IMG/VR virus record: IMGVR_UViG_3300036940_000389 | Source: a virus | Length of the DNA stretch: 64,000 bases | Reading direction: 5' to 3' (one strand) | Shown: positions 1-50,230 of the stretch, in pieces | How the letters are laid out: the number at the start of each line of letters is the position of its first letter | Position numbering within the stretch: position 1 is the stretch's first letter | Position numbers and translations under genes: made by a program | Notes under the pieces: model-generated | Told to the model about the DNA's origin: nothing | The model's database searches: none | What the model saw: the letters and a program-made list of their open reading frames with translations, nothing else

Positions 1-59
1 TGTCCAAAAAGTTTCCAGCAATTTCCAACACAGTTTCCTTTTTCATGACACAATCTCCT

Positions 60-269
60 TTAGTATAAATTTTCTTCAATACCTACACGTCCATATATTG
101 GGCGGGTCCAGCCAGATTTTGACAGCCAGACAATGCCTATTCCTCTACAAATAGAACATCGAATTCCGTCCTGTGCAGTTGATCCAAAACCATCACATCT
201 AGGACAAATTTTTTGCTCTCCGAATTCCATTTTACATTTTGAGTGATTATAAATTTTCCCCTTCCTCAT
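60..269 (-). CDS. small zinc-finger protein (DnaJ-type CxxCxGxG repeats)
   Basis: CPRCDGFG and CSICRGIG motifs; SD AAAGGAGA upstream. Confidence 0.7.
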   Translation of the reverse strand: MRKGKIYNHSKCKMEFGEQKICPRCDGFGSTAQDGIRCSICRGIGIVWLSKSGWTRPIYGRVGIEENLY

Positions 270-301
270 AGAAATTCTCTCCTTTGTTTAGAATTACAAA
301 A

Positions 302-368
302 GTTTAGTTCCTTCAATTGGATCTGGAACAAAATTTTCAGAAGTTCCAGATCCTATGAAAGATTAAAC
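302..368 (-). repeat. long imperfect stem-loop after stop codon (early-operon hairpin family)
   Basis: core GGATCTGGAAC/GTTCCAGATCC (319-329/343-353), extended by CTTTCA/TGAAGG and GTTTA/TAAAC. Confidence 0.75.
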
Positions 369-851
369 TATTTCAAGATTCATGCTTTCCATGTGATCAT
401 TCATGACTTGGTGGAAATAAGTTTCATCAAGTTGTTTGAGAATGTGCCCAGCATTGAATTCTTGTCCAGCAATATTTACTGGATAGTATTCATCTAGCAT
501 TTGAATTGTTAATTCCTCCCCTAATTCTTTAGTGATTGGGATTGGTTTGTCATCGTACTCATCTACCGTATCACTGAATGCCCGAGAGATTCCTTCATCA
601 TATGCTTCCCAGGCATCATCAGAATCCTCTCTCTCATTCAAATCCTTTGCGAAGAACTCAAATGGGGAGTACGTGCGGTAATTTTCCTCAGCCTCTGTCA
701 ACTCTTCCATGAATGCTTCTTTGAATACTTCTTTGTCCGCTTCTCTCATATTATCTACAGGATCAGGAGAGTTTGCCTGTGCAATTTGCTCTCCAACACG
801 ATAGCCCTCATTCTCCAGCTCTTCTAATGTCGCCTCTTTCCAGTCAGTCAT
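363..851 (-). CDS. acidic hypothetical protein
   Basis: 162-aa ORF, GAGGAGG SD, ATGA overlap with upstream gene. Confidence 0.8.
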   Translation of the reverse strand: MTDWKEATLEELENEGYRVGEQIAQANSPDPVDNMREADKEVFKEAFMEELTEAEENYRTYSPFEFFAKDLNEREDSDDAWEAYDEGISRAFSDTVDEYDDKPIPITKELGEELTIQMLDEYYPVNIAGQEFNAGHILKQLDETYFHQVMNDHMESMNLEIV

Positions 852-1090
852 AAATCCTCCTCTATGAAAGTGATGTTCGGTTGAAAAGGTTTCATAATAT
901 CAACATATGATTTTGCATGGTGTAGAGCTTTATTTCTGTTTTCTAAACTTTCCTGAATGTTATTTCCTATGTATTTATAAGCAACAATAAAGTGATGCCC
1001 TGACCACACAGAAAACTGCCCTTCCATGTAATCGAACAGATCCTTATTTTCCTCTGTTCGATTGGGATTATTACTTTGCTTCCTTTTCAT
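848..1090 (-). CDS. hypothetical protein
   Basis: ORF-track frame; start moved to ATG 1090 (MKRKQ), which overlaps the end of the upstream gene. Confidence 0.55.
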   Translation of the reverse strand: MKRKQSNNPNRTEENKDLFDYMEGQFSVWSGHHFIVAYKYIGNNIQESLENRNKALHHAKSYVDIMKPFQPNITFIEEDL

Positions 1091-1385
1091 AATTTCCGTC
1101 CATTTTAATTGCCAAATTAAGAAAATGATTTTCCGCATCCTTTTGACAATGATATCTTACAAGGTTGTAATCAATTTCATCTTCTTCGGGACCGAGCCAT
1201 TCAGGCTCATAATCCCAATAGAAGAATTGATCCCAAAAATGTTCTCCATCGATAAATCCTTTGATATCTATGCAGTTGTGGGAATCATCTTCAAACATGG
1301 AAATTCTGTTATTCTCATCCTTTTCAAAACGAACACCATGACCACACAAATACCCATGATCTGTGGGAAATTTGATATCTGCCAT
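1071..1385 (-). CDS. hypothetical protein
   Basis: 104-aa ORF, GAGGTG SD, tight packing. Confidence 0.75.
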   Translation of the reverse strand: MADIKFPTDHGYLCGHGVRFEKDENNRISMFEDDSHNCIDIKGFIDGEHFWDQFFYWDYEPEWLGPEEDEIDYNLVRYHCQKDAENHFLNLAIKMDGNYEKEAK

Positions 1386-1386
1386 A

Positions 1387-2034
1387 TTACATCACCTCAT
1401 AATGTTTGTAAGGAAATGCTTTGAGCTTGATCTTTTCCTTAGTCTCTCCATCAGACAAGAGAAGCCTGCTATACAGCTTTGGATCAAGATTTCCCAAAGT
1501 TACAGGACGATCAGCATCAGCGGCAAGTTCCCATGCCTCATCCCGATCAATGGTCCCATACATTCCAAAATCTTGTGCTGCTACTTCATAGGATCTTTCC
1601 AGCGCATTTACAATTTCCTCTATCTCTTCTTTTGTGAATTCTGGCAGTTCCATAACATTCTCCTTATTTTGTTTATAGGAAAGAAGTTCTTCCTTTCTTT
1701 CGGTTACTCTGCCAACGACATATTCCATTGGAAGTTCTGTACTGTTTTTTGATAATATACAGGGACAAGGCAGCATAAGTAATCGTCTTGGTTTGTTCAT
1801 TCTTTTAAAGAGCCAATAGAATCTCATTTCCTGCTCAAAGAGCATTACACAATCCCAACAACACCAAATCCTGTTTAATGGTGCCCTTTTAGGTTCATCT
1901 CCAAAACAAGAATGTGTTCCAAATAAATCAAGTGCTATATGCGCTGGACAAATTTTATCGGAACACTTACCATCTAGCTCTTTCTCCAATTCACTCAAAA
2001 CCATAAAATGCATTTGTTTTCTTTTTGGAGTCAT
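1387..2034 (-). CDS. Cys-rich protein (paralogue of 3487-3930) fused in frame to a second acidic ORF
   Basis: LDGKCSD..CP..NRIWCCxDC..PCPC shared with 3487-3930; internal TAAGGAGAATGTT-ATG at 1653 in frame. Confidence 0.75.
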   Translation of the reverse strand: MTPKRKQMHFMVLSELEKELDGKCSDKICPAHIALDLFGTHSCFGDEPKRAPLNRIWCCWDCVMLFEQEMRFYWLFKRMNKPRRLLMLPCPCILSKNSTELPMEYVVGRVTERKEELLSYKQNKENVMELPEFTKEEIEEIVNALERSYEVAAQDFGMYGTIDRDEAWELAADADRPVTLGNLDPKLYSRLLLSDGETKEKIKLKAFPYKHYEVM

Positions 2035-2044
2035 GATGTTTTCC

Positions 2045-2275
2045 TTATTTTGTTTTTGTTTCTATGAACAATTCCATTTCAACTTCGCTGCTTCCCATAT
2101 CTCCATGATAGATGGAAACAAATGCCCATTCTCCGAATAAAGTCATAAATGAGGTATTGTCCATTGATGCAATCCATGTGTCTGAATTTGAATAAATATG
2201 GACAACATCAGTATCCGTGCTGTCCTGAACTGCAACCACCTTAGTTTTTCTTGGATCTGACAATGGTGTGCTCAT
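2045..2275 (-). CDS. hypothetical protein
   Basis: 76-aa ORF, AAAGGAGA SD. Confidence 0.7.
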   Translation of the reverse strand: MSTPLSDPRKTKVVAVQDSTDTDVVHIYSNSDTWIASMDNTSFMTLFGEWAFVSIYHGDMGSSEVEMELFIETKTK

Positions 2276-2313
2276 AGAAATTCTCCTTTGTTAGGAATTA
2301 CAAAAATTTCAAA

Positions 2314-2337
2314 ATCCAACATCCAACATCCAACATC
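2314..2337. repeat. 7-bp tandem repeat (ATCCAAC x3.4; GTTGGAT on minus strand)
   Basis: ATCCAAC at 2314, 2321, 2328 plus ATC. Confidence 0.9.
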
Positions 2338-2385
2338 ATTGTCAGCTCCAAAGACATAATCCTTGGAGCTGATATGAGGTTAGAT
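2328..2385 (-). repeat. 58-nt imperfect stem-loop at stop codon (hairpin family)
   Basis: core TCAGCTCCAA/TTGGAGCTGA; outer ATCTAAC/GTTGGAT. Confidence 0.75.
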
Positions 2386-2766
2386 TATGTCTAGCTGTAC
2401 AGATAGAATTTTAGCTTCCTCGCCTGAGATGTATTCTTTCTCCACCATATTTCTCAGTGTTTTTTCAACTGCCACTTTGGCAGTCATTTGTATGCATGGA
2501 CATATTATTGCGGGTCTGACTTGAACAAATCCAGAACATATGCAGCAAGGAGAGCTATTAGGTTTCCATAAATCATCAGGATCACTATTTGGATCGAAAT
2601 CTGTGGTTGCGGGACATCCTAACTCATGTAAAGGATACTCTGCTTCTATATGTCTGGAGAACATTTCCAGAAGCCTATACACATGAATTTCCTCTGTGTA
2701 TTCAAACTCACCTTCATTCTCATAATTTTCAGGAAATATTTTGGGAAGTAATGAATCAGGATGCAT
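2380..2766 (-). CDS. Cys-rich hypothetical protein (distant member of the CP..CC..CPC family)
   Basis: GCPA, PCCICS, ICPCI; start reassigned using AAGGAG SD. Confidence 0.7.
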   Translation of the reverse strand: MHPDSLLPKIFPENYENEGEFEYTEEIHVYRLLEMFSRHIEAEYPLHELGCPATTDFDPNSDPDDLWKPNSSPCCICSGFVQVRPAIICPCIQMTAKVAVEKTLRNMVEKEYISGEEAKILSVQLDII

Positions 2767-3100
2767 GATCATTCTCCTTGTCTTGAGGAATAAGAATTTT
2801 CTCAAACCACTGAGACATGAGATATGCTACTCCTTCTATTTTATGCTCATGTTTTGGTTCAAAACTTCTCATAACATATGACAAATGGGCTACTGCTTTT
2901 GTTGTATCAATTCCTTCTTTTGGAATGACTTTTGTTCCTTCAGGAAGTCCTTTAAAGAACCATCGTTCCACAATTTCTACCCATTCTGATTTGTCAGCTT
3001 TTGTCCAATCGAATTCTTCAGGAATTTGATGTCTTTTAGGCAACAGTTCAAAAAACTTCTTCCCATAATAATTGCCGCTTGATACATCCTTAGGCTTCAT
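2756..3100 (-). CDS. conserved phage hypothetical protein
   Basis: WFFKGL..PKEGID..SFEPKHEHK..VAYL.S.WF pattern resembles a recurrent phage/prophage family (from recall, not searched); AAAGGAGA SD. Confidence 0.75.
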   Translation of the reverse strand: MKPKDVSSGNYYGKKFFELLPKRHQIPEEFDWTKADKSEWVEIVERWFFKGLPEGTKVIPKEGIDTTKAVAHLSYVMRSFEPKHEHKIEGVAYLMSQWFEKILIPQDKENDHAS

Positions 3101-3524
3101 TTTCAATCTCCTTTGCTTTTATTAAACATGGTCCCCCTTTCATCAGTTCCCTAACTGTGTCTGCGGAAATTTCAAAAATCTTGCCTCCTTGCTCAGTTGA
3201 TGTTGTTGGATCTTTCAGATAGAAAAACTTCACTTCCTCATCCCGAGAATTGAGCCAGTATTCAAGAATAGAATTGCGGCGACTGCTTCTGGCATCCTGT
3301 ATGTGAATAATATGAGTTCCGCATTTTCTCACAACCCAAATGTACTCAAGGAGAAGACTTCTTTTTTCAGCATCCCTTCCAATGATGTAGGCATCCCAGA
3401 GCATGTCGGAGTCATAAAGCTCAATATGCTCACTTCCTATACGGTGCATTTCAGACAATACCGATGGCATAAATGCCTCCTTCGAATCATAGAGTTTCTG
3501 ACCAATACATTTTTGCCAATTCAC
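3090..3524 (-). CDS. hypothetical protein
   Basis: 144-aa ORF, GTG start, overlaps neighbours. Confidence 0.7.
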   Translation of the reverse strand: MNWQKCIGQKLYDSKEAFMPSVLSEMHRIGSEHIELYDSDMLWDAYIIGRDAEKRSLLLEYIWVVRKCGTHIIHIQDARSSRRNSILEYWLNSRDEEVKFFYLKDPTTSTEQGGKIFEISADTVRELMKGGPCLIKAKEIENEA

Positions 3525-3930
3525 TTATTCTTTCCAACACCCTTTCTATTACTAATGGTCCAGGAAGATCATCAGGAAATCCGCATGATAATACACATGG
3601 ACATGGATATCTTGTCGATGTGTGAAATTTCTTTCCCCATCCTCTGATTTGTGATTCTGTTTTATTGAATCTTCTTTTTGCCAGCATATGAAGATTGGCA
3701 AAAGGACTGAACAATTCAACACAGTCTACACAACACCATATTCTGTTTCTTGTTTCGTCATAAATTCCTTTTGTGTTCTTTCCTTTTGTCTCTCCTGATC
3801 CAAAAAGTCTACTTGCTATATAGCTTGGACAAGATTCAAGCTCATCTGAGCATTTTCCATCAAGAACATGTTCCAATTCACGTAGCACTTCATAGTGCCA
3901 GAAAGCTCTTTTTTTGGTAATCGTTGCCAT
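3487..3930 (-). CDS. Cys-rich protein (paralogue of the 1387-2034 N-half)
   Basis: LDGKCSD, CPS, NRIWCCVDC, YPCPCVLS; GAGGTG SD before ATG 3930. Confidence 0.8.
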   Translation of the reverse strand: MATITKKRAFWHYEVLRELEHVLDGKCSDELESCPSYIASRLFGSGETKGKNTKGIYDETRNRIWCCVDCVELFSPFANLHMLAKRRFNKTESQIRGWGKKFHTSTRYPCPCVLSCGFPDDLPGPLVIERVLERISELAKMYWSETL

Positions 3931-3934
3931 CTTC

Positions 3935-4126
3935 TCACCTCTCATATTTACGTTTGCATTCTTCCCACACATCAGGAGTCACAGGAATGTCTTTTGGATT
4001 TCTGTCATAAGTGCTTTCCTGCCAAGAAACACATCCAGTAGGAATGCCACGACCTGATTTGTTCATTCCTACTGCTCCAGGCCAAATTGACGGAACCGAT
4101 TGTGAAGGATACTTTACTTTCGCCAT
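3935..4126 (-). CDS. small hypothetical protein
   Basis: 63-aa ORF, AAAGGAGA SD. Confidence 0.65.
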   Translation of the reverse strand: MAKVKYPSQSVPSIWPGAVGMNKSGRGIPTGCVSWQESTYDRNPKDIPVTPDVWEECKRKYER

Positions 4127-4154
4127 TCACACTCTCCTTTTTTGTTTGGGTTAT

Positions 4155-4217
4155 TTCCATCATTCGGTTCTGGAAATAAGGAATCTAAAATCAAAATTTC
4201 CAGAACCTCAGATAGAA
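4155..4217 (-). repeat. long stem-loop after stop codon (hairpin family)
   Basis: TTCTATC-TGA-GGTTCTGGAAAT / ATTTCCAGAACC-GAAT-GATGGAA. Confidence 0.8.
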
Positions 4218-4224
4218 TTAAATT

Positions 4225-4533
4225 TTACACCCAACGAATAACTCGGTATTTGAGCCTTTCGTTTTTCAAGTGATCAACCAGTATGATTTTGTCACCATAG
4301 TCAAGTATGGTTTCAGAGAGATAGTGGTGGGGTCTACCTCTTGGTAGTTTCTTGTGAAACTTCTCCAAGTCAAGATTCACTGCCTCCTCTTCCTCCATGT
4401 TCAAATAATTCCAGGATTGATTGACCCGCATCATTTCAGCCACCTGGATGTAATCAGCCTCATACACTCTGAGAGTACCATTCCTGTCGATCATTCTTGG
4501 AGTTATGTGGTTCACAAATATCAACCTGTTCAT
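4225..4533 (-). CDS. hypothetical protein
   Basis: ORF-track frame; start ATG 4533 with GAGGAG SD and ATGA overlap. Confidence 0.7.
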   Translation of the reverse strand: MNRLIFVNHITPRMIDRNGTLRVYEADYIQVAEMMRVNQSWNYLNMEEEEAVNLDLEKFHKKLPRGRPHHYLSETILDYGDKIILVDHLKNERLKYRVIRWV

Positions 4534-4694
4534 ACCAAAATCTCCTCTACTGTCTGGACAATTACGTGCCAGGGAGAATTCTTCTCGACCACAGCACAAA
4601 ATTCACCAACAACAACATCCCAACAATCTGTTATCAAGGACTCCTGAATCAGAACAGGAGTCATTTCGCCTTTGATTCTGATATTGATTTTCAT
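4530..4694 (-). CDS. small hypothetical protein (54 aa, not in ORF track)
   Basis: MKINIRIKGEMTPVLIQESL...EEILV*, AAAGGAGA SD, stop overlaps the next ATG. Confidence 0.65.
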   Translation of the reverse strand: MKINIRIKGEMTPVLIQESLITDCWDVVVGEFCAVVEKNSPWHVIVQTVEEILV

Positions 4695-4812
4695 GGTAAT
4701 TCTCCTTTTGCTTTTCCTTTGCTGTTTCCTTGCACGATAGACTCTGGCACGTAGCAGACAAGCACAAGGTCTGAAACGTGCAAGGAATGATGCATTCCGC
4801 TCAAAGGAAGCA

Positions 4813-4956
4813 CTACTGAACTCTTGCTTTACGTCTCACTTTGACAGTGGGCGCAGAAGGGGCAGAAACTGCCGCTGGTGGGCACTTCGGAAGGTCGTTT
4901 CTACTTTTCTTGGAAAAATTGACAAAGGATGCTTGATGGGCAGTAATCGTGTTCAT
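4813..4956 (-). CDS. small basic peptide (47 aa, not in ORF track)
   Basis: MNTITAHQASF...VRRKARVQ*, GGAGG SD 8 nt upstream. Confidence 0.45.
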   Translation of the reverse strand: MNTITAHQASFVNFSKKSRNDLPKCPPAAVSAPSAPTVKVRRKARVQ

Positions 4957-4985
4957 GGGGAAAACCTCCATGTTAGACATTAAAA

Positions 4986-5050
4986 CAAAAATCCCCTAGC
5001 CACAGCATCCTGGGATCATAAAAATCCCAGGACACAATGGGAGAGGATCT
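4986..5050 (-). repeat. long stem-loop after stop codon (hairpin family)
   Basis: GATCCTC..CCAT..TCCTGGGAT / ATCCCAGGA..GTGG..GGGGATT. Confidence 0.75.
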
Positions 5051-5053
5051 ACA

Positions 5054-5374
5054 TTATTCTCCTTCTGGTTCTGGATTAAATTCTTCGTACCATTCATCCC
5101 AAACACGTTCCACGTGCTTGGTGAAGTATTCTCTTCCTGCCATAGCTGCCGCATAAGCCATAGAAAGCTCATGGGCAAAATTACCCTCTCCTTTTTTCTC
5201 CAGGTGATGCATTTGGTTTTGGATCAGTTCGGATTGCTCCTCAAAATAGCCATAGTTGTTGGAAATGTGATCCAACGTAACGGCCAATGCTCTTCCTACT
5301 GGCTGATGAGTATGAATCCTCTCAGCCAATGTTTCCAACATGGTTAGGTCAGTGTGGATTGTGTACGGGATCAT
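5054..5374 (-). CDS. hypothetical protein
   Basis: 106-aa ORF, AAGGAGA SD. Confidence 0.75.
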   Translation of the reverse strand: MIPYTIHTDLTMLETLAERIHTHQPVGRALAVTLDHISNNYGYFEEQSELIQNQMHHLEKKGEGNFAHELSMAYAAAMAGREYFTKHVERVWDEWYEEFNPEPEGE

Positions 5375-5376
5375 AA

Positions 5377-5664
5377 TTACTCTCCTTCGAGGTCATCAAG
5401 TTCGGGGAAGTCAAATCCCCATGTCTCTCTCAATTCCTCCCGTTCCCATCCCTGAAGATATGCTTCTACCATATTTCTATGATAGGAATCACAAATCTCC
5501 CACTTCTGAAAAAATGAATTCCACCTAATAATAGTATCAATCATTGTTTCAGGACCATCTTCAGAATCCTGGGACTCATAAACGCCCTGGGCGTAAATCA
5601 CGCCCCGGATACTCACCACTCCGGTGATTCCAATTCTTTTTGAGTCTACCATGATATAGGCCAT
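5377..5664 (-). CDS. hypothetical protein
   Basis: 95-aa ORF, GGGAGG SD. Confidence 0.75.
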   Translation of the reverse strand: MAYIMVDSKRIGITGVVSIRGVIYAQGVYESQDSEDGPETMIDTIIRWNSFFQKWEICDSYHRNMVEAYLQGWEREELRETWGFDFPELDDLEGE

Positions 5665-5693
5665 AAATCCTCCCTGATTAAAGATTGGAAAAC

Positions 5694-5754
5694 CAAATCC
5701 TCTTACCAGTCAGCTCTAGGAATCATGTTCCTAGAGCCTCAGATACTAGGATCT
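5694..5754 (-). repeat. long stem-loop at stop codon (hairpin family, close homologue of 6221-6279)
   Basis: GATCCTAGTATCTGAGGCTCTAGGAA-CATGA-TTCCTAGAGCTGACTGGTAAGAGGATTTG. Confidence 0.85.
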
Positions 5755-6088
5755 ATTCAAACTCCTCAAATTCTACGTGGCAATCAATGGCTCCGCAGCC
5801 ATTTTGCAGTCCACACGTTTTCCCACAGGCTGTGCAGCAGGATTGATATGTTTCTACATTCAACTGTCCACAGATGGGACACACCTCAAGCCCATCTCCT
5901 GCAGGACAGACAATAAAATCCTCTTGGGAAATCTCTTCAGGGAAAATCCTTATTTTCTCCCCAGGATAATAATATGAGATTTCTCCATCACTTCCGTAAA
6001 CTTCCCACCAGCCATCAGAGCACCAGTGGGAATTTTCAGGCATTTCATTCCTATAATTTCCTGCATGATCCTTCAATAACATAATCAT
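5753..6088 (-). CDS. zinc-ribbon-like hypothetical protein
   Basis: CPICG, CCTACG, CGAIDC; AAAGGAGA SD. Confidence 0.75.
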   Translation of the reverse strand: MIMLLKDHAGNYRNEMPENSHWCSDGWWEVYGSDGEISYYYPGEKIRIFPEEISQEDFIVCPAGDGLEVCPICGQLNVETYQSCCTACGKTCGLQNGCGAIDCHVEFEEFE

Positions 6089-6094
6089 TCTCCT

Positions 6095-6190
6095 TTACAG
6101 TCCAAATACAAAAAACACATATGGGAATAAGAAGAGTATTCCCATGCCAACCAAAAATTTCAAAATTTCCATCATCAATTCTTTATCCAT
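6095..6190 (-). CDS. 31-aa membrane peptide (not in ORF track)
   Basis: MDKELMMEILKFLVGMGILFLFPYVFFVFGL*, AAGGAGG SD. Confidence 0.6.
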   Translation of the reverse strand: MDKELMMEILKFLVGMGILFLFPYVFFVFGL

Positions 6191-6220
6191 TGCGTTCCTC
6201 CTTATTATGAATTCCTAGAA

Positions 6221-6279
6221 CAAATCCTTTACCATTCAGCCCTGGGAAAATAAATTCCCAGAGCCTCAGATATAGGATC
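6221..6279 (-). repeat. long stem-loop at stop codon (hairpin family)
   Basis: GATCCTATATCTGAGGCTCTGGGAA-TTTATT-TTCCCAGGGCTGAATGGTAAAGGATTTG. Confidence 0.85.
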
Positions 6280-6802
6280 ATGCCACTGCTCTGTCCTCTT
6301 CCTTGTCTAATCTTTGGGATCCCCACGTTGCTCTCATGGTATCCCAATCAACTCCTTTACCCTTCCTATGATATTTCTCTGGCTTGATATACCAAGCCAG
6401 CTTGGTTTTGGAGAAGCCGACACCGCAATCAGCTTCCTTTCCAGCTTCTTTTATTACTTCCTTCACTGGTTTTGTATCACCAGTGATCCAGAGCCAGGAG
6501 CCTATCAGCTCCAACTCAATTCCAGGAATCCTCTTGAGAGTTTCATACGCCCTCAGGAGCTTGTCTCCAAGAAGCTCATTCCCTGTTGAGGGCTTCCCAC
6601 TCATCAGGTAGTCCTTCAAATCATTCCAACGATCTGAGGCCTCCTTATACGCCTCATTCACCATCTGCATGATCTCATTTCCTCGATCTCCTACCAAGTC
6701 AGGATGATATCTCTTGGCGAGATTTCGATACTTGGTCTTGAGATCCTCAAGACTGTTCTCAGTCTCAATTCCTAAAATGTCGATTACGGTTTGTAATTTC
6801 AT
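6278..6802 (-). CDS. J-domain (DnaJ-like) protein
   Basis: LKTKYRNLAKRYHPD..MQMVNEAY J-domain with HPD; C-terminal LIGSWLWITGDTKP..K..AWY domain. Confidence 0.85.
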   Translation of the reverse strand: MKLQTVIDILGIETENSLEDLKTKYRNLAKRYHPDLVGDRGNEIMQMVNEAYKEASDRWNDLKDYLMSGKPSTGNELLGDKLLRAYETLKRIPGIELELIGSWLWITGDTKPVKEVIKEAGKEADCGVGFSKTKLAWYIKPEKYHRKGKGVDWDTMRATWGSQRLDKEEDRAVA

Positions 6803-6933
6803 TGGGGAATACCTCCTTCTAATCTCTCCTAATATCTATTTTCTCAGGCCCTATCTCAGATTTTATTTAACATGAATAGAACATAATACACCTCCTTAAT
6901 AGATATTACATAACTCCAAATATGTGATACTGC

Positions 6934-6997
6934 ACAATCAGCACCATTTGGCCCCCCATACGACCCGAGCCGTATGGGGATCCTAAGGTGGGATTGT
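6934..6997 (-). repeat. long stem-loop after stop codon (hairpin family, divergent)
   Basis: ACAATC..CACC..CCCCATACG / CGTATGGGG..GGTG..GATTGT. Confidence 0.7.
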
Positions 6998-6999
6998 AG

Positions 7000-7491
7000 T
7001 TATTCGGATTCTTCCTGTTCGTATAGTGCAACAAATAATTCTGCACTATATGCGGGATCCAATGCGCCGTGTGAATAAAGCGAACGGATTGTGGCGCGGA
7101 TAGCATTCACATAACCGTTCTGCTTGGACTCTACACCGAGCATGTCCCTTGCCTCCTCCTCACTGAGCGTGGGATCCATTACCATGAGGTCAGCCAGTTG
7201 ACTGACCATTGCCTCTGAGTCTCCAAGGAGCCAGCGCCTAGTGGCACGTGCCCTCTTGGTGTACTGAGGGCCCTTAGGAGTCCGTTTACACCCTGTCCCT
7301 GTCCCTGTGGACTGGGTGGCTGCCTCGGCCTTGGCTTTGGCGTCCTCTTGAGCCTCAACCCGTGCCTTTTCTGAGGCAATGAGCCTCACCAGTGCCTTGA
7401 GAGGCAGTCCTTCAAACTCACCGGCGTCTTCGCCTGTGATCTGAACCAATTCCTGTACTGCATCCTTCTTAGTGATTGTTGCATTTGACAT
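7000..7491 (-). CDS. first gene of the leftward (early) unit, hypothetical
   Basis: 163-aa ORF, AGGAGGTG SD, GC-richer than the rest of the window. Confidence 0.8.
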   Translation of the reverse strand: MSNATITKKDAVQELVQITGEDAGEFEGLPLKALVRLIASEKARVEAQEDAKAKAEAATQSTGTGTGCKRTPKGPQYTKRARATRRWLLGDSEAMVSQLADLMVMDPTLSEEEARDMLGVESKQNGYVNAIRATIRSLYSHGALDPAYSAELFVALYEQEESE

Positions 7492-7499
7492 GGTGCACC

Positions 7500-8270
7500 T
7501 CCTAGTGCAGTTATAAGTGGGAAACCAACTCCATTCTGCCGGGAATGGCTTGGGATCATGGTGTCTGGAGACGGCTTCCTAGCCGTAGTTCCGATTGACC
7601 ACAATCCCACTCCATCCCAGATATGGAGCGCGGTATACGCCACGGGTCCTGGCCTGCTATGTGCTTCCCTGATATTAGGATCATGGCTGCATAGCCTTTG
7701 TGGCTCGCCGTCGGGGCGTATTCTAAGGTGAGGGCAGACGGGTTTTGATATGCGGGGCTTTATTCGGTTTAGATCCTGTCCTTAGGAGCTAGTCACCAAA
7801 GATCTTACACTAGGAATCCGCTGCCCCGTATATCTCATAACTACACGGGGACCTAGTGCTTCCCACCCTTCCTGGCGTAACATACGCCTACAGGGAGTGG
7901 GAAATGGGATCATGGCTCCAAACGGGACTAGGCAGCCTCCGCAGGGACTCGCCACCAATCTGGTGTCCCCCACCTAGCATAGACTTTGTTCCCACTTTGC
8001 GTGAGCCTATCGAGGCAGTTGTCCATGACCTGCCTCCGTCCGAGATATCTTAGCTCGGAACATATCCCCCTGCTCCCCCTTTTACCCCGGGATCATTGCA
8101 TGGGTTCCCCTTTCTGGGCTGCCTCCGATCAGTGGCTCCAGACGGTGCGTGGTCTATATGCTCACCGCTGTTGCCGTGCCGTTGGCTATGTCAAAGAGCG
8201 GGTTAACTGACCCCCTATGTTAAAGTTGAGCGCCTTGCGCTGGTAGCTGGTGTCGAGACACCACTACAAT
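7500..8270. other. GC-rich, hairpin-dense non-coding region between divergent units (candidate large ncRNA, origin or genome-end element)
   Basis: stems at 7552-7608, 7677-7777, 7808-7858, 7860-7902, 7905-7994, 8012-8036, 8039-8059, 8248-8263; GGGATCATGG-like motif x4; 57-63% GC in two sampled lines. Confidence 0.6.
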
Positions 8271-8344
8271 CGAATGCTATTTTTCAAAGTAAAGAGATTA
8301 AGTAACACGTCTTCTAATACTCATATACACGTCTACACGTTCAA

Positions 8345-8381
8345 TACACACTCACTACACACTCACTACACACTCACTACA
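8345..8381. repeat. 11-bp tandem repeat TACACACTCAC x3.4
   Basis: copies at 8345, 8356, 8367 plus TACA. Confidence 0.95.
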
Positions 8382-8410
8382 TTTGAATCTCTTCTGGAAG
8401 TGTGATATTT

Positions 8411-8435
8411 ATTGTATTATATTGTATTGTATTGT
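8411..8435. repeat. 5-bp tandem repeat ATTGT x5 (one ATTAT variant)
   Basis: read directly. Confidence 0.9.
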
Positions 8436-8437
8436 TT

Positions 8438-8467
8438 GGATACATAAGGATACATAAGGATACATAA
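8438..8467. repeat. 10-bp tandem repeat GGATACATAA x3
   Basis: copies at 8438, 8448, 8458. Confidence 0.95.
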
Positions 8468-8489
8468 GACACACAAAGGAGAAAATATA

Positions 8490-9377
8490 ATGCCAAGAAC
8501 AGGTCAAGGAAATGCAATTCCTCATGGGGTACAGAATAAGCTTGGAGATGTAAGGCTAGAGAAAGGGAGATGGGGAAATGATAAAGAGAATAGCATTTAT
8601 ATACTAGCGTGGGATTTCGCTGAGGATTGCACAGGAATTAAATGCCCGCTGTATGAGAAGTGCGAGTACATGCAGATACAGAAGAGTGTTCCTTGCGAAA
8701 GGACAAGCAAGTGTGCGCTTCAGCAGAAGTACCTCAAGAGTGTAATGAAGGCTGTTGTTGAGAAGATGAAAAAGAACAAGGCTACTGAGGAGACTGTGAT
8801 AAAGTTAGGATATCATTTGATTCCTCTGTATGCTCAGTTGTTCAAGTTCAAGATGTGGGAAACGTACAATAAGGAGATTATAATTTATTCTCAGGGGAGT
8901 CCTAAAGTGCATCCTGTGTACAAGGAGATGAGAGAGATTATAAAAACGCTCACGAGTGTTTGGAAAGATATTGGAAGTGTGTTTAAGGAGAAGGCTGATC
9001 CAGGAAAAGTAGGAGATGGGGCTTTTATAGACGCTATGTACGGAGTGGTTGATGAGGAGTCAGAAGAGGATCCAAAAGGATCAGGAATTGATTTCGAGTC
9101 AGAGGATGATGAGGAAGAATCAGAAGAGGGAACAGGATTAGATGAGTTAGATCAGCCAGTGAAGAAAAAGAAAGCACGAGGAAAGCAAAAAAATTATCAT
9201 AAGAAGAAAAGGAAGCCTAGATCCAAAGCAAAAATTGATGTTCCAGGATATAATTCAAGAGCGCATAGGAATGAGGTCAGGAAAGGGGAGAAAGCAGAGC
9301 CGATAAGAGTCTCAGAGAAAGTAGCTGAGAAGAAAAGGAAGCGCAAGGAAAAGCAAAAGGAGAGCGGGGAAAACTAG
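8490..9377 (+). CDS. terminase small subunit (putative) with acidic and basic C-terminal tails
   Basis: first gene of the packaging operon; KVHPVYKEMREII resembles the P27-type TerS motif; AAAGGAGA SD. Confidence 0.6.
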   Translation: MPRTGQGNAIPHGVQNKLGDVRLEKGRWGNDKENSIYILAWDFAEDCTGIKCPLYEKCEYMQIQKSVPCERTSKCALQQKYLKSVMKAVVEKMKKNKATEETVIKLGYHLIPLYAQLFKFKMWETYNKEIIIYSQGSPKVHPVYKEMREIIKTLTSVWKDIGSVFKEKADPGKVGDGAFIDAMYGVVDEESEEDPKGSGIDFESEDDEEESEEGTGLDELDQPVKKKKARGKQKNYHKKKRKPRSKAKIDVPGYNSRAHRNEVRKGEKAEPIRVSEKVAEKKRKRKEKQKESGEN

Positions 9378-47647: not shown

Positions 47648-47839
47648 TTATTTGTGAGATATGAACCACGAAGCAAGTCCTATGAGTGCAATAAATATTG
47701 GTGGCAGCCATAAAGGGGCTAGAATAAATACCCAAGGAATTGGTTCTGGTAAAAATCTACCTAATGCCAGAATGCCACACCAGAATAACAGAAAAACAAA
47801 CAAGAAACCTATTCCTGGAAACACTGATCTGTTTTTCAT
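47648..47839 (-). CDS. two-TM membrane protein
   Basis: FLFVFLLFWCGILA and WVFILAPLWLPPIFIALIG. Confidence 0.7.
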   Translation of the reverse strand: MKNRSVFPGIGFLFVFLLFWCGILALGRFLPEPIPWVFILAPLWLPPIFIALIGLASWFISHK

Positions 47840-48639
47840 TTTCCTATCCTTTCAGTTAAATATTTGTAAGAAAAACCGTAAGCATGAAGATCCTTACAAG
47901 AAAATGTCAGTGGTCCTGGATCGACCCCGATAACATCAGCAACATATTCGTTTAGAAGAGTGAAGCCTCCCATATTTGTAGGGAATCCCCCTACCAAATC
48001 CCACGATCTATATATAACATGAGTAGTGAGACAATTATCAATAACCCTAAAATCAAGACCTCTGAGACAGGGCGAGGTTCTCCTTTCCATCTCATTCTCA
48101 TATGGTATATCGTAAGCAAAGTTAGACTCAGGATAACCAACGCTAAGATAACAATGAGCATTTCCTTTTCCCTTTTTTAGAAAATGTTGAATAATCCATT
48201 CAAGTTGGTTTGGAACATTGATCCAAAGAGTATCTCCATCAACTATATAATCGACTTCTATACTGTTTCCATCAGAACAAAGATATTCCCATCCATTAAT
48301 TGCAGGAAGTTTATACCAGCCTCCAACAATCCAAGTAGCATAACGATAATCTTCATTTGGAGCTAAATTTGAGTCCATAAGATAGTTTGCAAAATATTGT
48401 TCAATTTCGTGATCAGTTGTTGGAGGAGGAAGTGTGCTCGATTCTGGCATTCGTGGAGCTAATGGTCTTTTGTGCGGATGCTGTACAAAACCAGATACAA
48501 AATCAAATGAATATCTGTACTGACCTTCATATGATCCTTTACTTATGTAGTATTTTCTTCCGTGTTCAAAAAGATTCCACAACAAACGAAACCAAGCATC
48601 ATCAAGATCAGTAGCTTCAATAAAAATCGGTTTAAACAT
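47836..48639 (-). CDS. thyA: thymidylate synthase family protein (dUMP-type)
   Basis: SPCL catalytic Cys, YRSWDL, GFPTN (Asn specificity residue), LHAY. Confidence 0.8.
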   Translation of the reverse strand: MFKPIFIEATDLDDAWFRLLWNLFEHGRKYYISKGSYEGQYRYSFDFVSGFVQHPHKRPLAPRMPESSTLPPPTTDHEIEQYFANYLMDSNLAPNEDYRYATWIVGGWYKLPAINGWEYLCSDGNSIEVDYIVDGDTLWINVPNQLEWIIQHFLKKGKGNAHCYLSVGYPESNFAYDIPYENEMERRTSPCLRGLDFRVIDNCLTTHVIYRSWDLVGGFPTNMGGFTLLNEYVADVIGVDPGPLTFSCKDLHAYGFSYKYLTERIGK

Positions 48640-48647
48640 GCATTCTC

Positions 48648-48857
48648 CTATTTAGTTATTATGTCCTTAAAACATTTTAATGTTGCTTTTGAAGAATCAT
48701 TTGAAGGAAAGAATTCTTTAGGGAATTCATAAGAAGGAAAACTTTTTTTATTTTTTATACAATCAATGAGAGTATTTTTATCTTGTATAATATTGTTCAT
48801 TTTTAATTCGATTTGTTCAGAAATACCTTTTTCAAAATATACTTTTGGAAGATTCAC
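48648..48857 (-). CDS. hypothetical protein
   Basis: 69-aa ORF packed in operon. Confidence 0.5.
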   Translation of the reverse strand: MNLPKVYFEKGISEQIELKMNNIIQDKNTLIDCIKNKKSFPSYEFPKEFFPSNDSSKATLKCFKDIITK

Positions 48858-48872
48858 ATTAAGTGAGCACGT

Positions 48873-49073
48873 TCATTCTTCTGTCTCTTTGTTTTTGGAT
48901 ATCTCTGCAAGCAGTTTCATTCCTTCTTTGACTTTTTCTTTCATAGAAGGATGACAAACAAGCTTATTTTCATGTATTTCTACTTCTTGTTTTGGGTTGC
49001 CCTGCTCGTCAAGCATATCTTCTTTTGTATGAATTTCAAGATGTGTGAGAAAATCAAGATTCATATTCATCAC
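48873..49073 (-). CDS. hypothetical protein
   Basis: 66-aa ORF overlapping the GT stop. Confidence 0.55.
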   Translation of the reverse strand: MMNMNLDFLTHLEIHTKEDMLDEQGNPKQEVEIHENKLVCHPSMKEKVKEGMKLLAEISKNKETEE

Positions 49074-50230
49074 GAATACTTCCTTATTATGTCGTGAAAC
49101 ATGTTGGCAATGACATCAGGACTTAGGACTCTTTGAATAAACTCTCTTCCCATCGTTTTTCTATTTTCTAAAGAGTTTTCATCTAATGCATCACACACAT
49201 GCTTCATGAGAAATCCAGTATCTTTTATGTCTGGCTCAGCCCAGCTTTGACTCCCATCATAATTTGGAATCCAGTTCATATGAGCTACAGGAGTCATTTG
49301 ATAGTTTGTCAAAAATGCTGATTTTCCGTCTAATGGTTTTAAGAAATCAACATGTCCACTATAATTTGGAGCAATGCATATGCATCTTCCTGCACAAGCT
49401 TCGGCAAAAGGAATACCAAATCCTTCTGCTCTTGGAATCATTACGAAACAATCACTTTGATTATATATTGAAATCAAATCTTTTTTGCTCATGATATCTC
49501 CAATTAGATATATCGGTGGATATGATTTTAATTTCATATCACTTTTTAATTGTTCTATTTCATTTTTTATGACTTGGAGTTCTCTTTTTGATGTGTTTGA
49601 TCTATACGTTTTCAGTATCAATACCACATCTTCTCTATCATAAAATTCACTGAAATACGCCTTTAATAATCCTATAGGATTTTTTCTTTCTGTCCATTGA
49701 AATACAGATAAAAATTTAAATCTTTTATTTTCACATGGTCCCAAGTCATATCTGCTCTCGCTTTTCTCTTCATTTATAAATTCATTCACGTCTACACAAT
49801 GAGGCAGAACTTCTATTGGAATTTTGATTCCATTTTGAATGTACAATTCTTTGTTGAATTCTGAAGGAACAAGCTGTAAATCAAAATATCTGTTAATTGT
49901 CCGTATCCATTTTTTAGGAAGCTTATCAGTTTCCCATGTGTTATACGCAATATTGATTTTGCCATGCTCAATCTTTATTTGTGCTTCGACAGGAACTTGA
50001 TGATGAACAACGAAATCATAAGAAATATCTCTTTTCTTTAAATCCATTACAAGTTTGCCCTGATCTCCGAAATATGATGCTGGTTGTGGATCTACTTGCT
50101 TTGGTTCTGTTGTGATTTCGAATCCAGCATTGTGTAAAGCAGATACATAATCTCTATTTGCTTGTCCATATCCACTATGACTCAATAACGGACCTTTCCA
50201 TTTTATTCCTATACTTGATTTATTTGTCAT
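49070..50230 (-). CDS. GT-B (GT4-like) glycosyltransferase
   Basis: SGYGQANR, YNTWET, FLSVFQWTERKN, AEGFGIPFAEA. Confidence 0.85.
   Translation of the reverse strand: MTNKSSIGIKWKGPLLSHSGYGQANRDYVSALHNAGFEITTEPKQVDPQPASYFGDQGKLVMDLKKRDISYDFVVHHQVPVEAQIKIEHGKINIAYNTWETDKLPKKWIRTINRYFDLQLVPSEFNKELYIQNGIKIPIEVLPHCVDVNEFINEEKSESRYDLGPCENKRFKFLSVFQWTERKNPIGLLKAYFSEFYDREDVVLILKTYRSNTSKRELQVIKNEIEQLKSDMKLKSYPPIYLIGDIMSKKDLISIYNQSDCFVMIPRAEGFGIPFAEACAGRCICIAPNYSGHVDFLKPLDGKSAFLTNYQMTPVAHMNWIPNYDGSQSWAEPDIKDTGFLMKHVCDALDENSLENRKTMGREFIQRVLSPDVIANMFHDIIRKYS

What the first reader, a model, noticed from the sequence alone, without database searches (positions are those of the whole stretch)
5694..6279. 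Two near-identical hairpins with a compensatory change and a conserved tandem G.A internal loop
Seen: 6221-6279 and 5694-5754 align almost base for base. TGGGAA/TTCCCA in one is TAGGAA/TTCCTA in the other (compensatory), while the loops are unrelated (TTTATT vs CATGA). Together with 4155-4217, all three show TATC-T-GA-G on the 5' arm facing GA-N-T(bulge)-G(G/A)T(A/G) on the 3' arm. In 4155-4217 the arms even read CUGA and AUGAUGG, resembling box D and box C. Inference: structure is under selection and defines a recognition motif (tandem sheared GA, k-turn-like) for a host or phage protein.
Basis: partly seen in the sequence, partly recalled or inferred. Interest (0 to 1): 0.7.

Follow-up and report, generated by a model that had tools for sequence, protein, structure and literature searches.

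The report
Repeated hairpins between phage early genes
Three copies of one ~60-base RNA hairpin sit directly after stop codons in the early operon of an uncultivated oil-field phage; they most likely act as cutting and stabilising signals for the long early transcript, as in phage T7, and are not a k-turn.

Summary
Read on the minus (sense) strand, 4221-4151, 5754-5695 and 6279-6222 are three copies of one long imperfect hairpin. It has a lower stem, a 4-bp middle stem, an internal loop UGA/GAMU, an 11-12 bp upper stem and an unrelated apical loop.

- **Position.** Each copy starts at or 3 nt after a stop codon and ends 24-31 nt before the next start codon.
- **Fourth copy.** A close relative's contig carries another copy whose middle stem is CACC/GGUG instead of UAUC/GGUA.
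- **Evidence for a selected RNA fold.** Pairing is 95% overall and 100% in the upper stem, four pairs change on both sides, G.U pairs lie on the sense strand only, and a 98%-identical strain shows no change in six hairpins.

The three copies are a subfamily of at least seven stop-abutting hairpins in this operon. The other members, and hairpins in more distant relatives, keep the architecture but not the GA/GA loop.

There is no 3-nt bulge, and the box-C-like string is in one copy only and out of register, so the k-turn reading fails.

The best reading (about 0.45, inferred) is intercistronic processing signals for a double-strand-specific RNase such as RNase III. These would leave protective 3' hairpins, as at the T7 early sites. 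Cleavage is untested, the host is unknown and no RNA data exist.

The parts
6222..6279 (-). Copy 3 of the GA-loop hairpin: GAUCCU.A.UAUC.UGA.GGCUCUGGGAA-UUUAUU-UUCCCAGGGCU.GAAU.GGUA.A.AGGAUU. Its first two bases are the last two of the TGA stop (6280-6278) of the J-domain gene.
   Evidence: -31.6 kcal/mol, z -4.99; 74.3 bits
5695..5754 (-). Copy 2: AGAUCCU.AG.UAUC.UGA.GGCUCUAGGAA-CAUGA-UUCCUAGAGCU.GACU.GGUA.AG.AGGAUUU. It overlaps the TAG stop (5755-5753) of the 111-aa zinc-ribbon ORF.
   Evidence: -29.7 kcal/mol, z -4.74; 72.9 bits
4151..4221 (-). Copy 1, the more diverged copy: UUAAUUC.UAUC.UGA.GGUUCUGGAAAU-20 nt loop-AUUUCCAGAACC.GAAU.GAUG.GAAAUAA. It starts 3 nt after the TAA stop (4227-4225).
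   Evidence: -30.6 kcal/mol, z -4.99; 65.8 bits
6934..6997 (-). H7, a related hairpin after the stop of the 163-aa ORF. It has the same outer and middle stems as the relative's extra copy (CACC/GGUG), but the internal loop is UUA/AAAU and the upper stem is different.
   Evidence: Its homologue in the relative (L005 1982-1919, loop UCA/GAAU) scores 23.6 bits with model R1.
4986..5050 (-). H4, a hairpin after the stop at 5054. It has a 13-bp upper stem, a 1x1 U/U loop, six G.U pairs, and is followed by UUUUUGUUUU. It is the only member that looks like an intrinsic terminator.
   Evidence: (-37.6 kcal/mol, z -7.2)
2330..2383 (-). H2, a hairpin overlapping the stop at 2380. It has a 14-bp upper stem and an A/CA loop.
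   Evidence: z -7.7; 17.3 bits
304..366 (-). H1, a hairpin overlapping the stop at 363. It has an 11-bp upper stem (GGAUCUGGAAC) and a UA/AAU loop.
   Evidence: z -5.5; 23.5 bits, E 0.0014
6278..6802 (-). J-domain (DnaJ-like, HPD motif) early gene whose stop abuts copy 3.
   Evidence: PF00226, E 2e-9
6095..6190 (-). 31-aa hydrophobic ORF downstream of copy 3. Its RBS AAGGAGG is at 6203-6197 and its ATG lies 31 nt after the hairpin.
   Evidence: called as a gene in strain contigs
5753..6088 (-). 111-aa Cys-rich (zinc-ribbon) ORF whose stop abuts copy 2.
5377..5664 (-). 95-aa ORF downstream of copy 2. Its RBS GGGAGG is at 5674-5669 and its ATG lies 30 nt after the hairpin.
4225..4536 (-). About 103-aa ORF whose stop precedes copy 1.
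3935..4126 (-). 63-aa ORF downstream of copy 1. Its RBS AAGGAGAG is at 4139-4132 and its ATG lies 24 nt after the hairpin.

Best explanation
The three elements are paralogous copies of an intercistronic RNA hairpin on the long early transcript of a siphovirus. They belong to a set of at least seven long imperfect hairpins that each begin at a stop codon.

Proposed mechanism (inferred): about 22-26 bp of interrupted double helix is recognised by a double-strand-specific endoribonuclease, most likely host RNase III. The internal loop lies one helical turn (11-12 bp) below the apical loop and limits cutting to the 3' arm, at or near GAMU. The upstream cistron then keeps the hairpin as a 3' cap against exonucleases. 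The downstream cistron starts with a leader of about 45 nt that carries its Shine-Dalgarno site.

Shown here: position, strand, fold, compensatory changes and architecture. Inferred: transcription as one unit, cleavage, and the enzyme.
For: 1. Position. All copies start 0-3 nt from a stop and end 24-31 nt before the next ATG, leaving the RBS free.
2. RNA on the sense strand. G.U pairs occur on that strand only, and the sense folds are stronger.
3. Pairing kept through changes. 95% of cells are paired and 4 pairs in the upper and middle stems change on both sides. 0 of 500 shuffles reach the observed pairing, and slid controls give 29-59%.
4. Same architecture, different sequence. This holds in the other hairpins of the operon and in relatives with 61% and 48% identical J-domain proteins (L057, L060). 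That fits a structure-reading enzyme better than a sequence-reading protein.
5. T7 comparison. The T7 early RNase III sites, folded with the same tool, are likewise intercistronic paralogous hairpins. They have a conserved core, a variable apical loop, a 9-13 bp upper stem, a purine-rich 3' internal loop and a lower stem.
6. Literature. PMC1540722 states that RNase III substrates typically span two helical turns. It also states that internal loops restrict cleavage to one strand, giving 3' hairpins that protect against 3'-5' exonucleases.
7. Terminators look different. The late operons end in short GC-rich stems followed by U runs.
Against: No RNA data exist: no RNA run holds the sequence, so neither the transcript nor any cleavage is shown.

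The host is unknown. One relative's contig is binned in a Methanosarcinales MAG.

The strict conservation of UGA/GAMU in four copies is more than a purely structure-reading enzyme needs, although the T7 sites also keep their loop sequences.

Model R1 finds no homology to the T7 sites, so the resemblance is architectural only.
Confidence: 0.45

Rival explanations
1. The conserved UGA/GAMU internal loop (tandem G.A next to a G-C or G.U pair, plus U.U or a bulge) is a docking site for a specific phage or host protein. That protein would regulate the neighbouring cistrons through translation, stability or antitermination.
For: Of the seven loop bases, only one varies among the four copies, while 12 of 30 stem columns and every apical-loop base vary. 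A more distant relative has a hairpin with a GA/GAA loop next to a 13-bp upper stem (L060 1045-1140).
Against: With four sequences the contrast between loop and stems is not statistically significant. Two of the copies are 83% identical, so shared descent explains much of it. H7, H7R, H1, H2 and H4 lack the GA pairs. No RNA-binding protein was recognised in the record. In copy 2 the A-to-C change allows a G-C pair instead of the sheared pairs.
Confidence: 0.15
2. The hairpins are mainly boundary repeats at which gene cassettes are exchanged by homologous recombination, as with PeSL elements of T4-type phages, or they are small selfish REP- or MITE-like repeats. Any RNA function would be secondary.
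For: The flanking genes of the copies are unrelated. The close relative L005 carries an extra copy at the edge of a segment that differs from the window, about 18 nt from the point where homology resumes. Its modules also lie in another order. The hairpins cluster in the first 8 kb of small ORFs, where GC content is atypical.
Against: Compensatory changes and sense-only G.U pairs are not needed for a recombination substrate. Breakpoints lie 18-60 nt from the hairpins, not inside them. No promoter is attached, unlike in PeSLs. There are no target-site duplications and no copies outside this phage lineage.
Confidence: 0.15
3. They are transcription pause, attenuation or termination hairpins, read through by the boxA-type antitermination signal at the head of the operon.
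For: A boxA-like GCTCTTTGACA lies at 8199-8189 (minus strand), upstream of the operon. H4 is followed by UUUUUGUUUU. Copies 2 and 3 are followed by moderately U-rich tails.
Against: Copy 1, the relative's extra copy, H7, H1 and H2 have no U run. The stems are long, imperfect and AU-rich at the base, unlike the phage's own late terminators. The terminator scan did not flag them.
Confidence: 0.08
4. They act on DNA, as palindromic operators or as single-strand DNA hairpins for a transposase or nuclease.
For: Inverted repeats exist on both strands by definition.
Against: There are 25 G.U pairs on the sense folds against 3 on the antisense folds of the nine hairpins other than H4b. The antisense folds are 3-14 kcal/mol weaker. 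The elements sit after stop codons, not at promoters. No HUH or Y1 enzyme was noticed among the proteins scanned.
Confidence: 0.03

Closest known systems
RNase III processing sites of the phage T7 early region (between genes 0.3 and 1.3)
   Same: Both are intercistronic on a long early transcript. Both are a paralogous family with a conserved core, variable apical loops and compensating stem changes. Both have an upper stem of about one helical turn, a purine-rich 3' internal loop and a lower stem. The role of the loop in one-strand cutting, and the protective 3' hairpin it leaves, are described in PMC1540722.
   Different: There is no sequence homology. Here the stop codon is part of the stem base, the helix is longer (three segments), and the loop can form tandem G.A. 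Cleavage is unproven and the host is unknown.
Bs-RNase III sites in Bacillus phage SP82 early mRNA (Panganiban and Whiteley 1983, cited in PMC4838370)
   Same: Both are repeated, sequence-related hairpins in early phage mRNA. The SP82 sites are known substrates of B. subtilis RNase III.
Kink-turn, box C/D motif (L7Ae family binding site)
   Same: Two GA dinucleotides face each other next to a regular helix. Copy 1 contains the strings CUGA and AUGAUGG.
   Different: There is no 3-nt bulge. Instead there is 1 nt on one side and 2 nt on the other, and the 2-nt side is the strand that carries no bulge in a k-turn. Position 2b would be G in copies 2 and 3 and in the relative's extra copy. No L7Ae gene is in the record.
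PeSL (promoter-early stem-loop) cassettes of T4-type phages (PMC2839356, PMC4122927)
   Same: Both are repeated stem-loops in a plastic region of small early genes, close to points where close relatives differ in gene content.
   Different: PeSLs combine a terminator with an early promoter. No promoter is attached here, and the junctions are near the hairpins, not in them.

Membership tests
Bacterial RNase III processing signal (T7 type) | About two helical turns (20 bp or more) of possibly interrupted double-stranded RNA | tested here: met
   20-22 pairs in three coaxial segments in each copy.
Bacterial RNase III processing signal (T7 type) | Internal loop or bulge about one helical turn below the apical loop | tested here: met
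   The UGA/GAMU loop lies under an 11-12 bp upper stem. The T7 sites folded the same way have 9-13 bp upper stems.
Bacterial RNase III processing signal (T7 type) | Lies on the sense strand between cistrons of a polycistronic RNA | tested here: inconclusive
   Position and strand fit. The transcript itself is not shown, because no RNA run exists.
Bacterial RNase III processing signal (T7 type) | Cut by RNase III at a defined bond | not testable with these tools
   This needs an enzyme assay or end mapping.
Bacterial RNase III processing signal (T7 type) | RNase III present in the infected cell | tested here: inconclusive
   The phage record has none and the host is unknown. The boxA-like signal, Shine-Dalgarno sites, RecA, Pol A and a weak beta-clamp hit favour a bacterium. 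One relative's contig is binned in an archaeal MAG.
Kink-turn, box C/D | 3-nt bulge followed on its 3' side by tandem sheared G.A and A.G pairs | tested here: not met
   In the 5' arm 1 nt lies between the middle stem and GA. In the 3' arm GA follows the upper stem directly, with 2 nt before the middle stem.
Kink-turn, box C/D | Box C (RUGAUGA) and box D (CUGA) conserved and in register | tested here: not met
   AUGAUGG occurs only in copy 1, where its GA lies in the 4-bp stem. The other copies read AUGGUA, CUGGUA or AUGGUG.
Intrinsic terminator | GC-rich stem followed at once by a run of U | tested here: not met
   The scan does not flag the three copies. Their tails are UUGGUUUUCC, UUGUUCUAGG and CCCAAACAAA.
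PeSL cassette | Stem-loop joined to an early promoter | tested here: not met
   No sigma-70-like site lies at or beside the hairpins. Promoters of an unknown host could be missed.
Any Rfam family | Match to a curated covariance model | tested here: not met
   The E-value scan of 1-9000 gave only a sub-threshold hit on the opposite strand of H4.

The most novel reading that the evidence does not exclude
The invariant UGA/GAMU loop is a tandem-GA protein-docking motif that is not a k-turn. An unknown early phage protein or host factor would read it to mark cistron boundaries on an antiterminated transcript about 20 kb long. This would be a sequence-specific punctuation system rather than plain RNase III substrates.
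Probability: 0.12. Interest if true: 0.6.

Novelty: new member of a known kind. Interest (0 to 1): 0.3.

Why it matters
It adds an uncultivated subsurface siphovirus to the few phages (T7 and SP82 types) whose early operon is punctuated by a family of related hairpins. The four copies differ naturally in their stems, and H7, H7R and H1 differ naturally in the loop. That gives a ready-made set of variants for asking what a double-strand RNase reads in such signals. The practical value is modest: better operon and cistron-boundary annotation in this phage group, and portable insulator or stabiliser hairpins if cleavage is confirmed.

Tried and rejected
- **K-turn, box C/D.** Rejected on topology and register.
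- **Hammerhead or other ribozyme, and every Rfam family.** No match. The core reads CUGAGG, not CUGANGA.
- **CRISPR-repeat mimic.** The stem is too long. Collection scans found no arrays or other copies. In viral contigs only the close relative L005 is real; the other nine matches lack a hairpin. In metagenome contigs there were 26 matches, none with a hairpin, about the number I estimate chance alone would give.
- **Readthrough or frameshift stimulator.** Continued reading meets a stop after 3-9 codons (by inspection of the sequences).
- **Promoter in or beside the hairpin.** None found.
- **RNA evidence.** No RNA holder is listed. Four DNA runs laid as contigs gave no joints or ends of use, and most differences were not listed.
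- **Relatives through flanking proteins.**
  - The 111-aa ORF has none in viral contigs.
  - Distant J-domain phages (30-34% identity) have no such hairpin.
  - The terminase has no relative in genome contigs.
  - Terminase relatives in viral contigs have little or no early region.
- **Strain contigs.** Five of six are identical to the window, so they add nothing.
- **Homology to T7 sites with model R1.** None.

Full report
**Setting.** The window is part of an 89,286-bp IMG/VR virus record found in oil-field, subsurface and groundwater metagenomes.
- It is a siphovirus. It has a tape measure protein, a gpJ-like tip protein, an E-type capsid protein and a portal.
- It carries its own replication genes: Pol A with an intein, a clamp loader, RecA and a ribonucleotide reductase.
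- Bases 1 to about 8300 of the window carry small genes on the minus strand. The late genes run on the plus strand from 8490.
- The finding lies among these early genes and has to be read on the minus strand.

**The observation.** On the minus strand the three elements read as follows.

| Copy | Coordinates | Sequence |
|---|---|---|
| 1 | 4221-4151 | UUAAUUC.UAUC.UGA.GGUUCUGGAAAU-(20 nt)-AUUUCCAGAACC.GAAU.GAUG.GAAAUAA |
| 2 | 5754-5695 | AGAUCCU.AG.UAUC.UGA.GGCUCUAGGAA-CAUGA-UUCCUAGAGCU.GACU.GGUA.AG.AGGAUUU |
| 3 | 6279-6222 | GAUCCU.A.UAUC.UGA.GGCUCUGGGAA-UUUAUU-UUCCCAGGGCU.GAAU.GGUA.A.AGGAUU |

- Copies 2 and 3 are 83% identical. Copy 1 is about 60% identical to either.
- The 9-mer CCTCAGATA occurs three times in 64 kb, only at these sites.
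- A 15-mer pattern with up to two mismatches finds three minus-strand sites in the whole record and none in the reversed control. A looser structural scan also finds only these three.
- Each copy folds at -30 to -32 kcal/mol with z about -5, and 0 of 200 shuffles fold as well. The plus-strand folds are 8-14 kcal/mol weaker.

**Position.**
- Copy 3 overlaps the TGA stop of the J-domain gene.
- Copy 2 overlaps the TAG stop of a 111-aa zinc-ribbon ORF.
- Copy 1 starts 3 nt after a TAA stop.
- The next ATG follows 31, 30 and 24 nt after the hairpin, with a free AAGGAGG, GGGAGG or AAGGAGAG in between.

**A fourth copy and covariation.** A 7.5-kb contig of a close relative (L005, also fetched reversed as L024; J-domain protein 98% identical) has copy 3 with one change, at the unpaired base 6273. 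It also has an extra copy in front of the J-domain gene: AAUCC.C.CACC.UGA.GGUUCUGGGAA-UUAUG-UUCCCAGGACU.GAAU.GGUG.A.AGGAUU.

I aligned the four sequences as A2 and counted the pairs.
- 95% of cells are paired, and the upper stem is 100% paired.
- Pairs 19-56 (C-G to U-A), 23-52 and 25-50 (G-C to A-U), and 10-66 (U-A to C-G), change on both sides.
- No shuffle of 500 reaches the observed pairing or covariation score. Sliding the 3' partner gives 29-59% pairing.
- Covariation counted in the lower stem is partly an alignment artefact, because the register differs between copies.

Two further points support a selected RNA fold.
- Nine of the ten hairpins examined (all but H4b, a further hairpin at 4787-4726) carry 25 G.U pairs on the sense fold against 3 on the antisense fold. 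The functional form is therefore a minus-strand single strand, that is, the mRNA.
- A strain 97.9% identical (L065) has 66 differences between 3400 and 7500 and none in six hairpins totalling 383 nt, where about 6 would be expected. The differences are clustered, so this is only supporting evidence.

**The wider family.** I checked them.
- Hairpins with z from -4.1 to -7.7 begin 0-7 nt from the stops at 7000, 6278, 5753, 5054, 4225, 2380 and 363. Such hairpins are rare further down the operon.
- All have a lower stem, often a 4-bp middle stem, a small internal loop and an 11-14 bp upper stem.
- The model R1, built from the four GA-loop copies, detects H1 (23.5 bits), the relative's H7 (H7R, 23.6 bits) and, weakly, H2.
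- Their internal loops differ: UA/AAU in H1, A/CA in H2, U/U in H4, UUA/AAAU in H7 and UCA/GAAU in H7R.
- H7 and H7R share the CACC/GGUG middle stem and the AAUCCC base with the relative's extra copy. They are therefore kin that lost one or both G residues of the proposed G.A pairs.
- Phages whose J-domain protein is 61% and 48% identical (L057, L060) also fill every long intergenic gap with a long hairpin just after a stop. These hairpins have unrelated sequence. One has a GA/GAA loop under a 13-bp stem.
- So the hairpin architecture is conserved across the group, while the GA loop is conserved only within the subfamily.

**What it is not.**
- K-turn. A k-turn needs a 3-nt bulge followed by G.A and A.G pairs. 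Here the 5' arm has one base between the middle stem and GA. The 3' arm has GA directly after the upper stem and two bases before the middle stem. The alternative register that uses AUGAUGG exists only in copy 1; the other copies have GG at that place.
- Phage-encoded binding proteins. The record encodes no L7Ae, RNase III or dsRBD protein.
- Rfam. Nothing matches.
- Terminators. The three copies lack U runs and differ from the phage's own late terminators. Only H4 has a U run.
- Promoter. No sigma-70-like promoter is attached.
- Spread. No other copies exist in IMG/VR or in the JGI metagenome contigs. All other pattern matches lack a hairpin, and their number is about what I estimate chance alone would give.

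**Most likely mechanism.** The elements resemble the RNase III sites of the T7 early region.
- Folded with the same tool, the T7 intergenic sites are paralogous hairpins with a conserved core (ACUCAAGGU...GGCCUUUAUGAUU) and variable apical loops. They have a 9-13 bp upper stem, a purine-rich 3' internal loop and a lower stem. T7 R1 even reads UAUCU.UA.[9 bp].AAU.AGGUA.
- PMC1540722 states that E. coli RNase III substrates typically span two helical turns. It adds that internal loops limit cleavage to one phosphodiester, leaving 3' hairpins that protect against 3'-5' exonucleases.
- Similar sequence-related sites are known in Bacillus phage SP82 (cited in PMC4838370).
- Each hairpin here offers 20-22 pairs, with the loop one helical turn below the apical loop.
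- I therefore infer cutting in the 3' arm at or near GAMU. This would give a 3'-capped upstream mRNA and a downstream mRNA with a leader of about 45 nt.
- A boxA-like GCTCTTTGACA at 8199-8189 (lead from note e1-5356000) suggests an antiterminated long early transcript that would need such processing.
- None of this is shown. There are no RNA data, and R1 finds no homology in T7.

**Host.** The host is unknown.
- Features that favour a bacterium: the boxA-like signal, Shine-Dalgarno sites, RecA, Pol A, a weak beta-clamp hit and hairpin-plus-U terminators.
- One relative's contig (capsid protein 73% identical) is binned in a Methanosarcinales MAG. I treat this as a lead only, since binning of viral contigs is unreliable.

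**Rivals.**
- A specific protein-docking role of the GA loop stays open. Only one of seven loop bases varies, against 12 of 30 stem columns. That contrast is not significant with four partly redundant sequences.
- A role as recombination boundaries is suggested by the relative. Its extra copy sits about 18 nt from the point where homology to the window resumes. The structured non-coding RNA and two genes lie in a different order there. The junctions are near the hairpins, not in them.
- These roles could coexist with processing.

**Verdict.**
- Selection on an RNA fold is supported.
- The k-turn and box C/D reading is not supported.
- The elements are best filed as a new sequence family of a known kind of element, with moderate-to-low interest.

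Noticed in passing
L005 1-2530 versus window 6234-8210: The close relative has the early modules in another order. In L005 the order is a 165-aa gene, H7R, GC-rich non-coding RNA (about 80% identical patches), a 110-aa gene, a 64-aa gene, the extra hairpin, then the J-domain gene. In the window the non-coding RNA comes first and the two small genes are absent.
   Followed up: partly
window 6867-6884 (-): A five-codon micro-ORF (MFYSC, stop) with a strong RBS (AAGGAGG) lies between H7 and the J-domain gene. It is followed at about 6817-6862 by AAUCUGAGAUAGGGCCUGAGAAAAUAGAUAUUAGGAGAGAUU, which contains the AUCUGAG string and may be a decayed hairpin copy.
   Followed up: no
L005 966-1021 (-): A sequence like the upper stem (GCUCUGGGAA-GAGAAA-UUCCCAGGAAUGAUUGG) lies inside the 110-aa ORF of the relative (R1 14.4 bits, E 0.8). 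It may be a hairpin remnant absorbed into coding sequence.
   Followed up: no
L005 about 578-598 (-) and about 1170-1192 (-): The leader GA(G)GAAUCUUAUAAAUGGAGGU occurs twice, once in front of the J-domain gene and once in front of the 110-aa gene. It is a second repeated boundary sequence, at the 5' side of cassettes.
   Followed up: no
L056 (contig CAZOXV010000007.1): A capsid protein 73% identical lies on a 17-kb contig of a MAG labelled uncultured Methanosarcinales archaeon. This is either a binning artefact or a host hint that would change which RNases are relevant.
   Followed up: partly
window 4986-5050 (-): H4 is the only hairpin of the set followed by a real U run (UUUUUGUUUU). It may be an internal terminator or attenuator of the early operon. 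Its plus strand gave a sub-threshold Rfam hit to the PutA thermometer (29.7 bits, threshold 51).
   Followed up: partly
window 61865-63958 (-); L054 3805-6726 (-): Inteins with LAGLIDADG homing endonuclease domains interrupt both the family A DNA polymerase and an SNF2-type helicase.
   Followed up: no
L055 3189-4424 (-), L055 4426-5358 (-); window 47836-50230 (-): A TET-associated glycosyltransferase, an NAD-dependent sugar epimerase/dehydratase, a thymidylate-synthase-like protein and a GT4 glycosyltransferase point to sugar-modified DNA bases.
   Followed up: no
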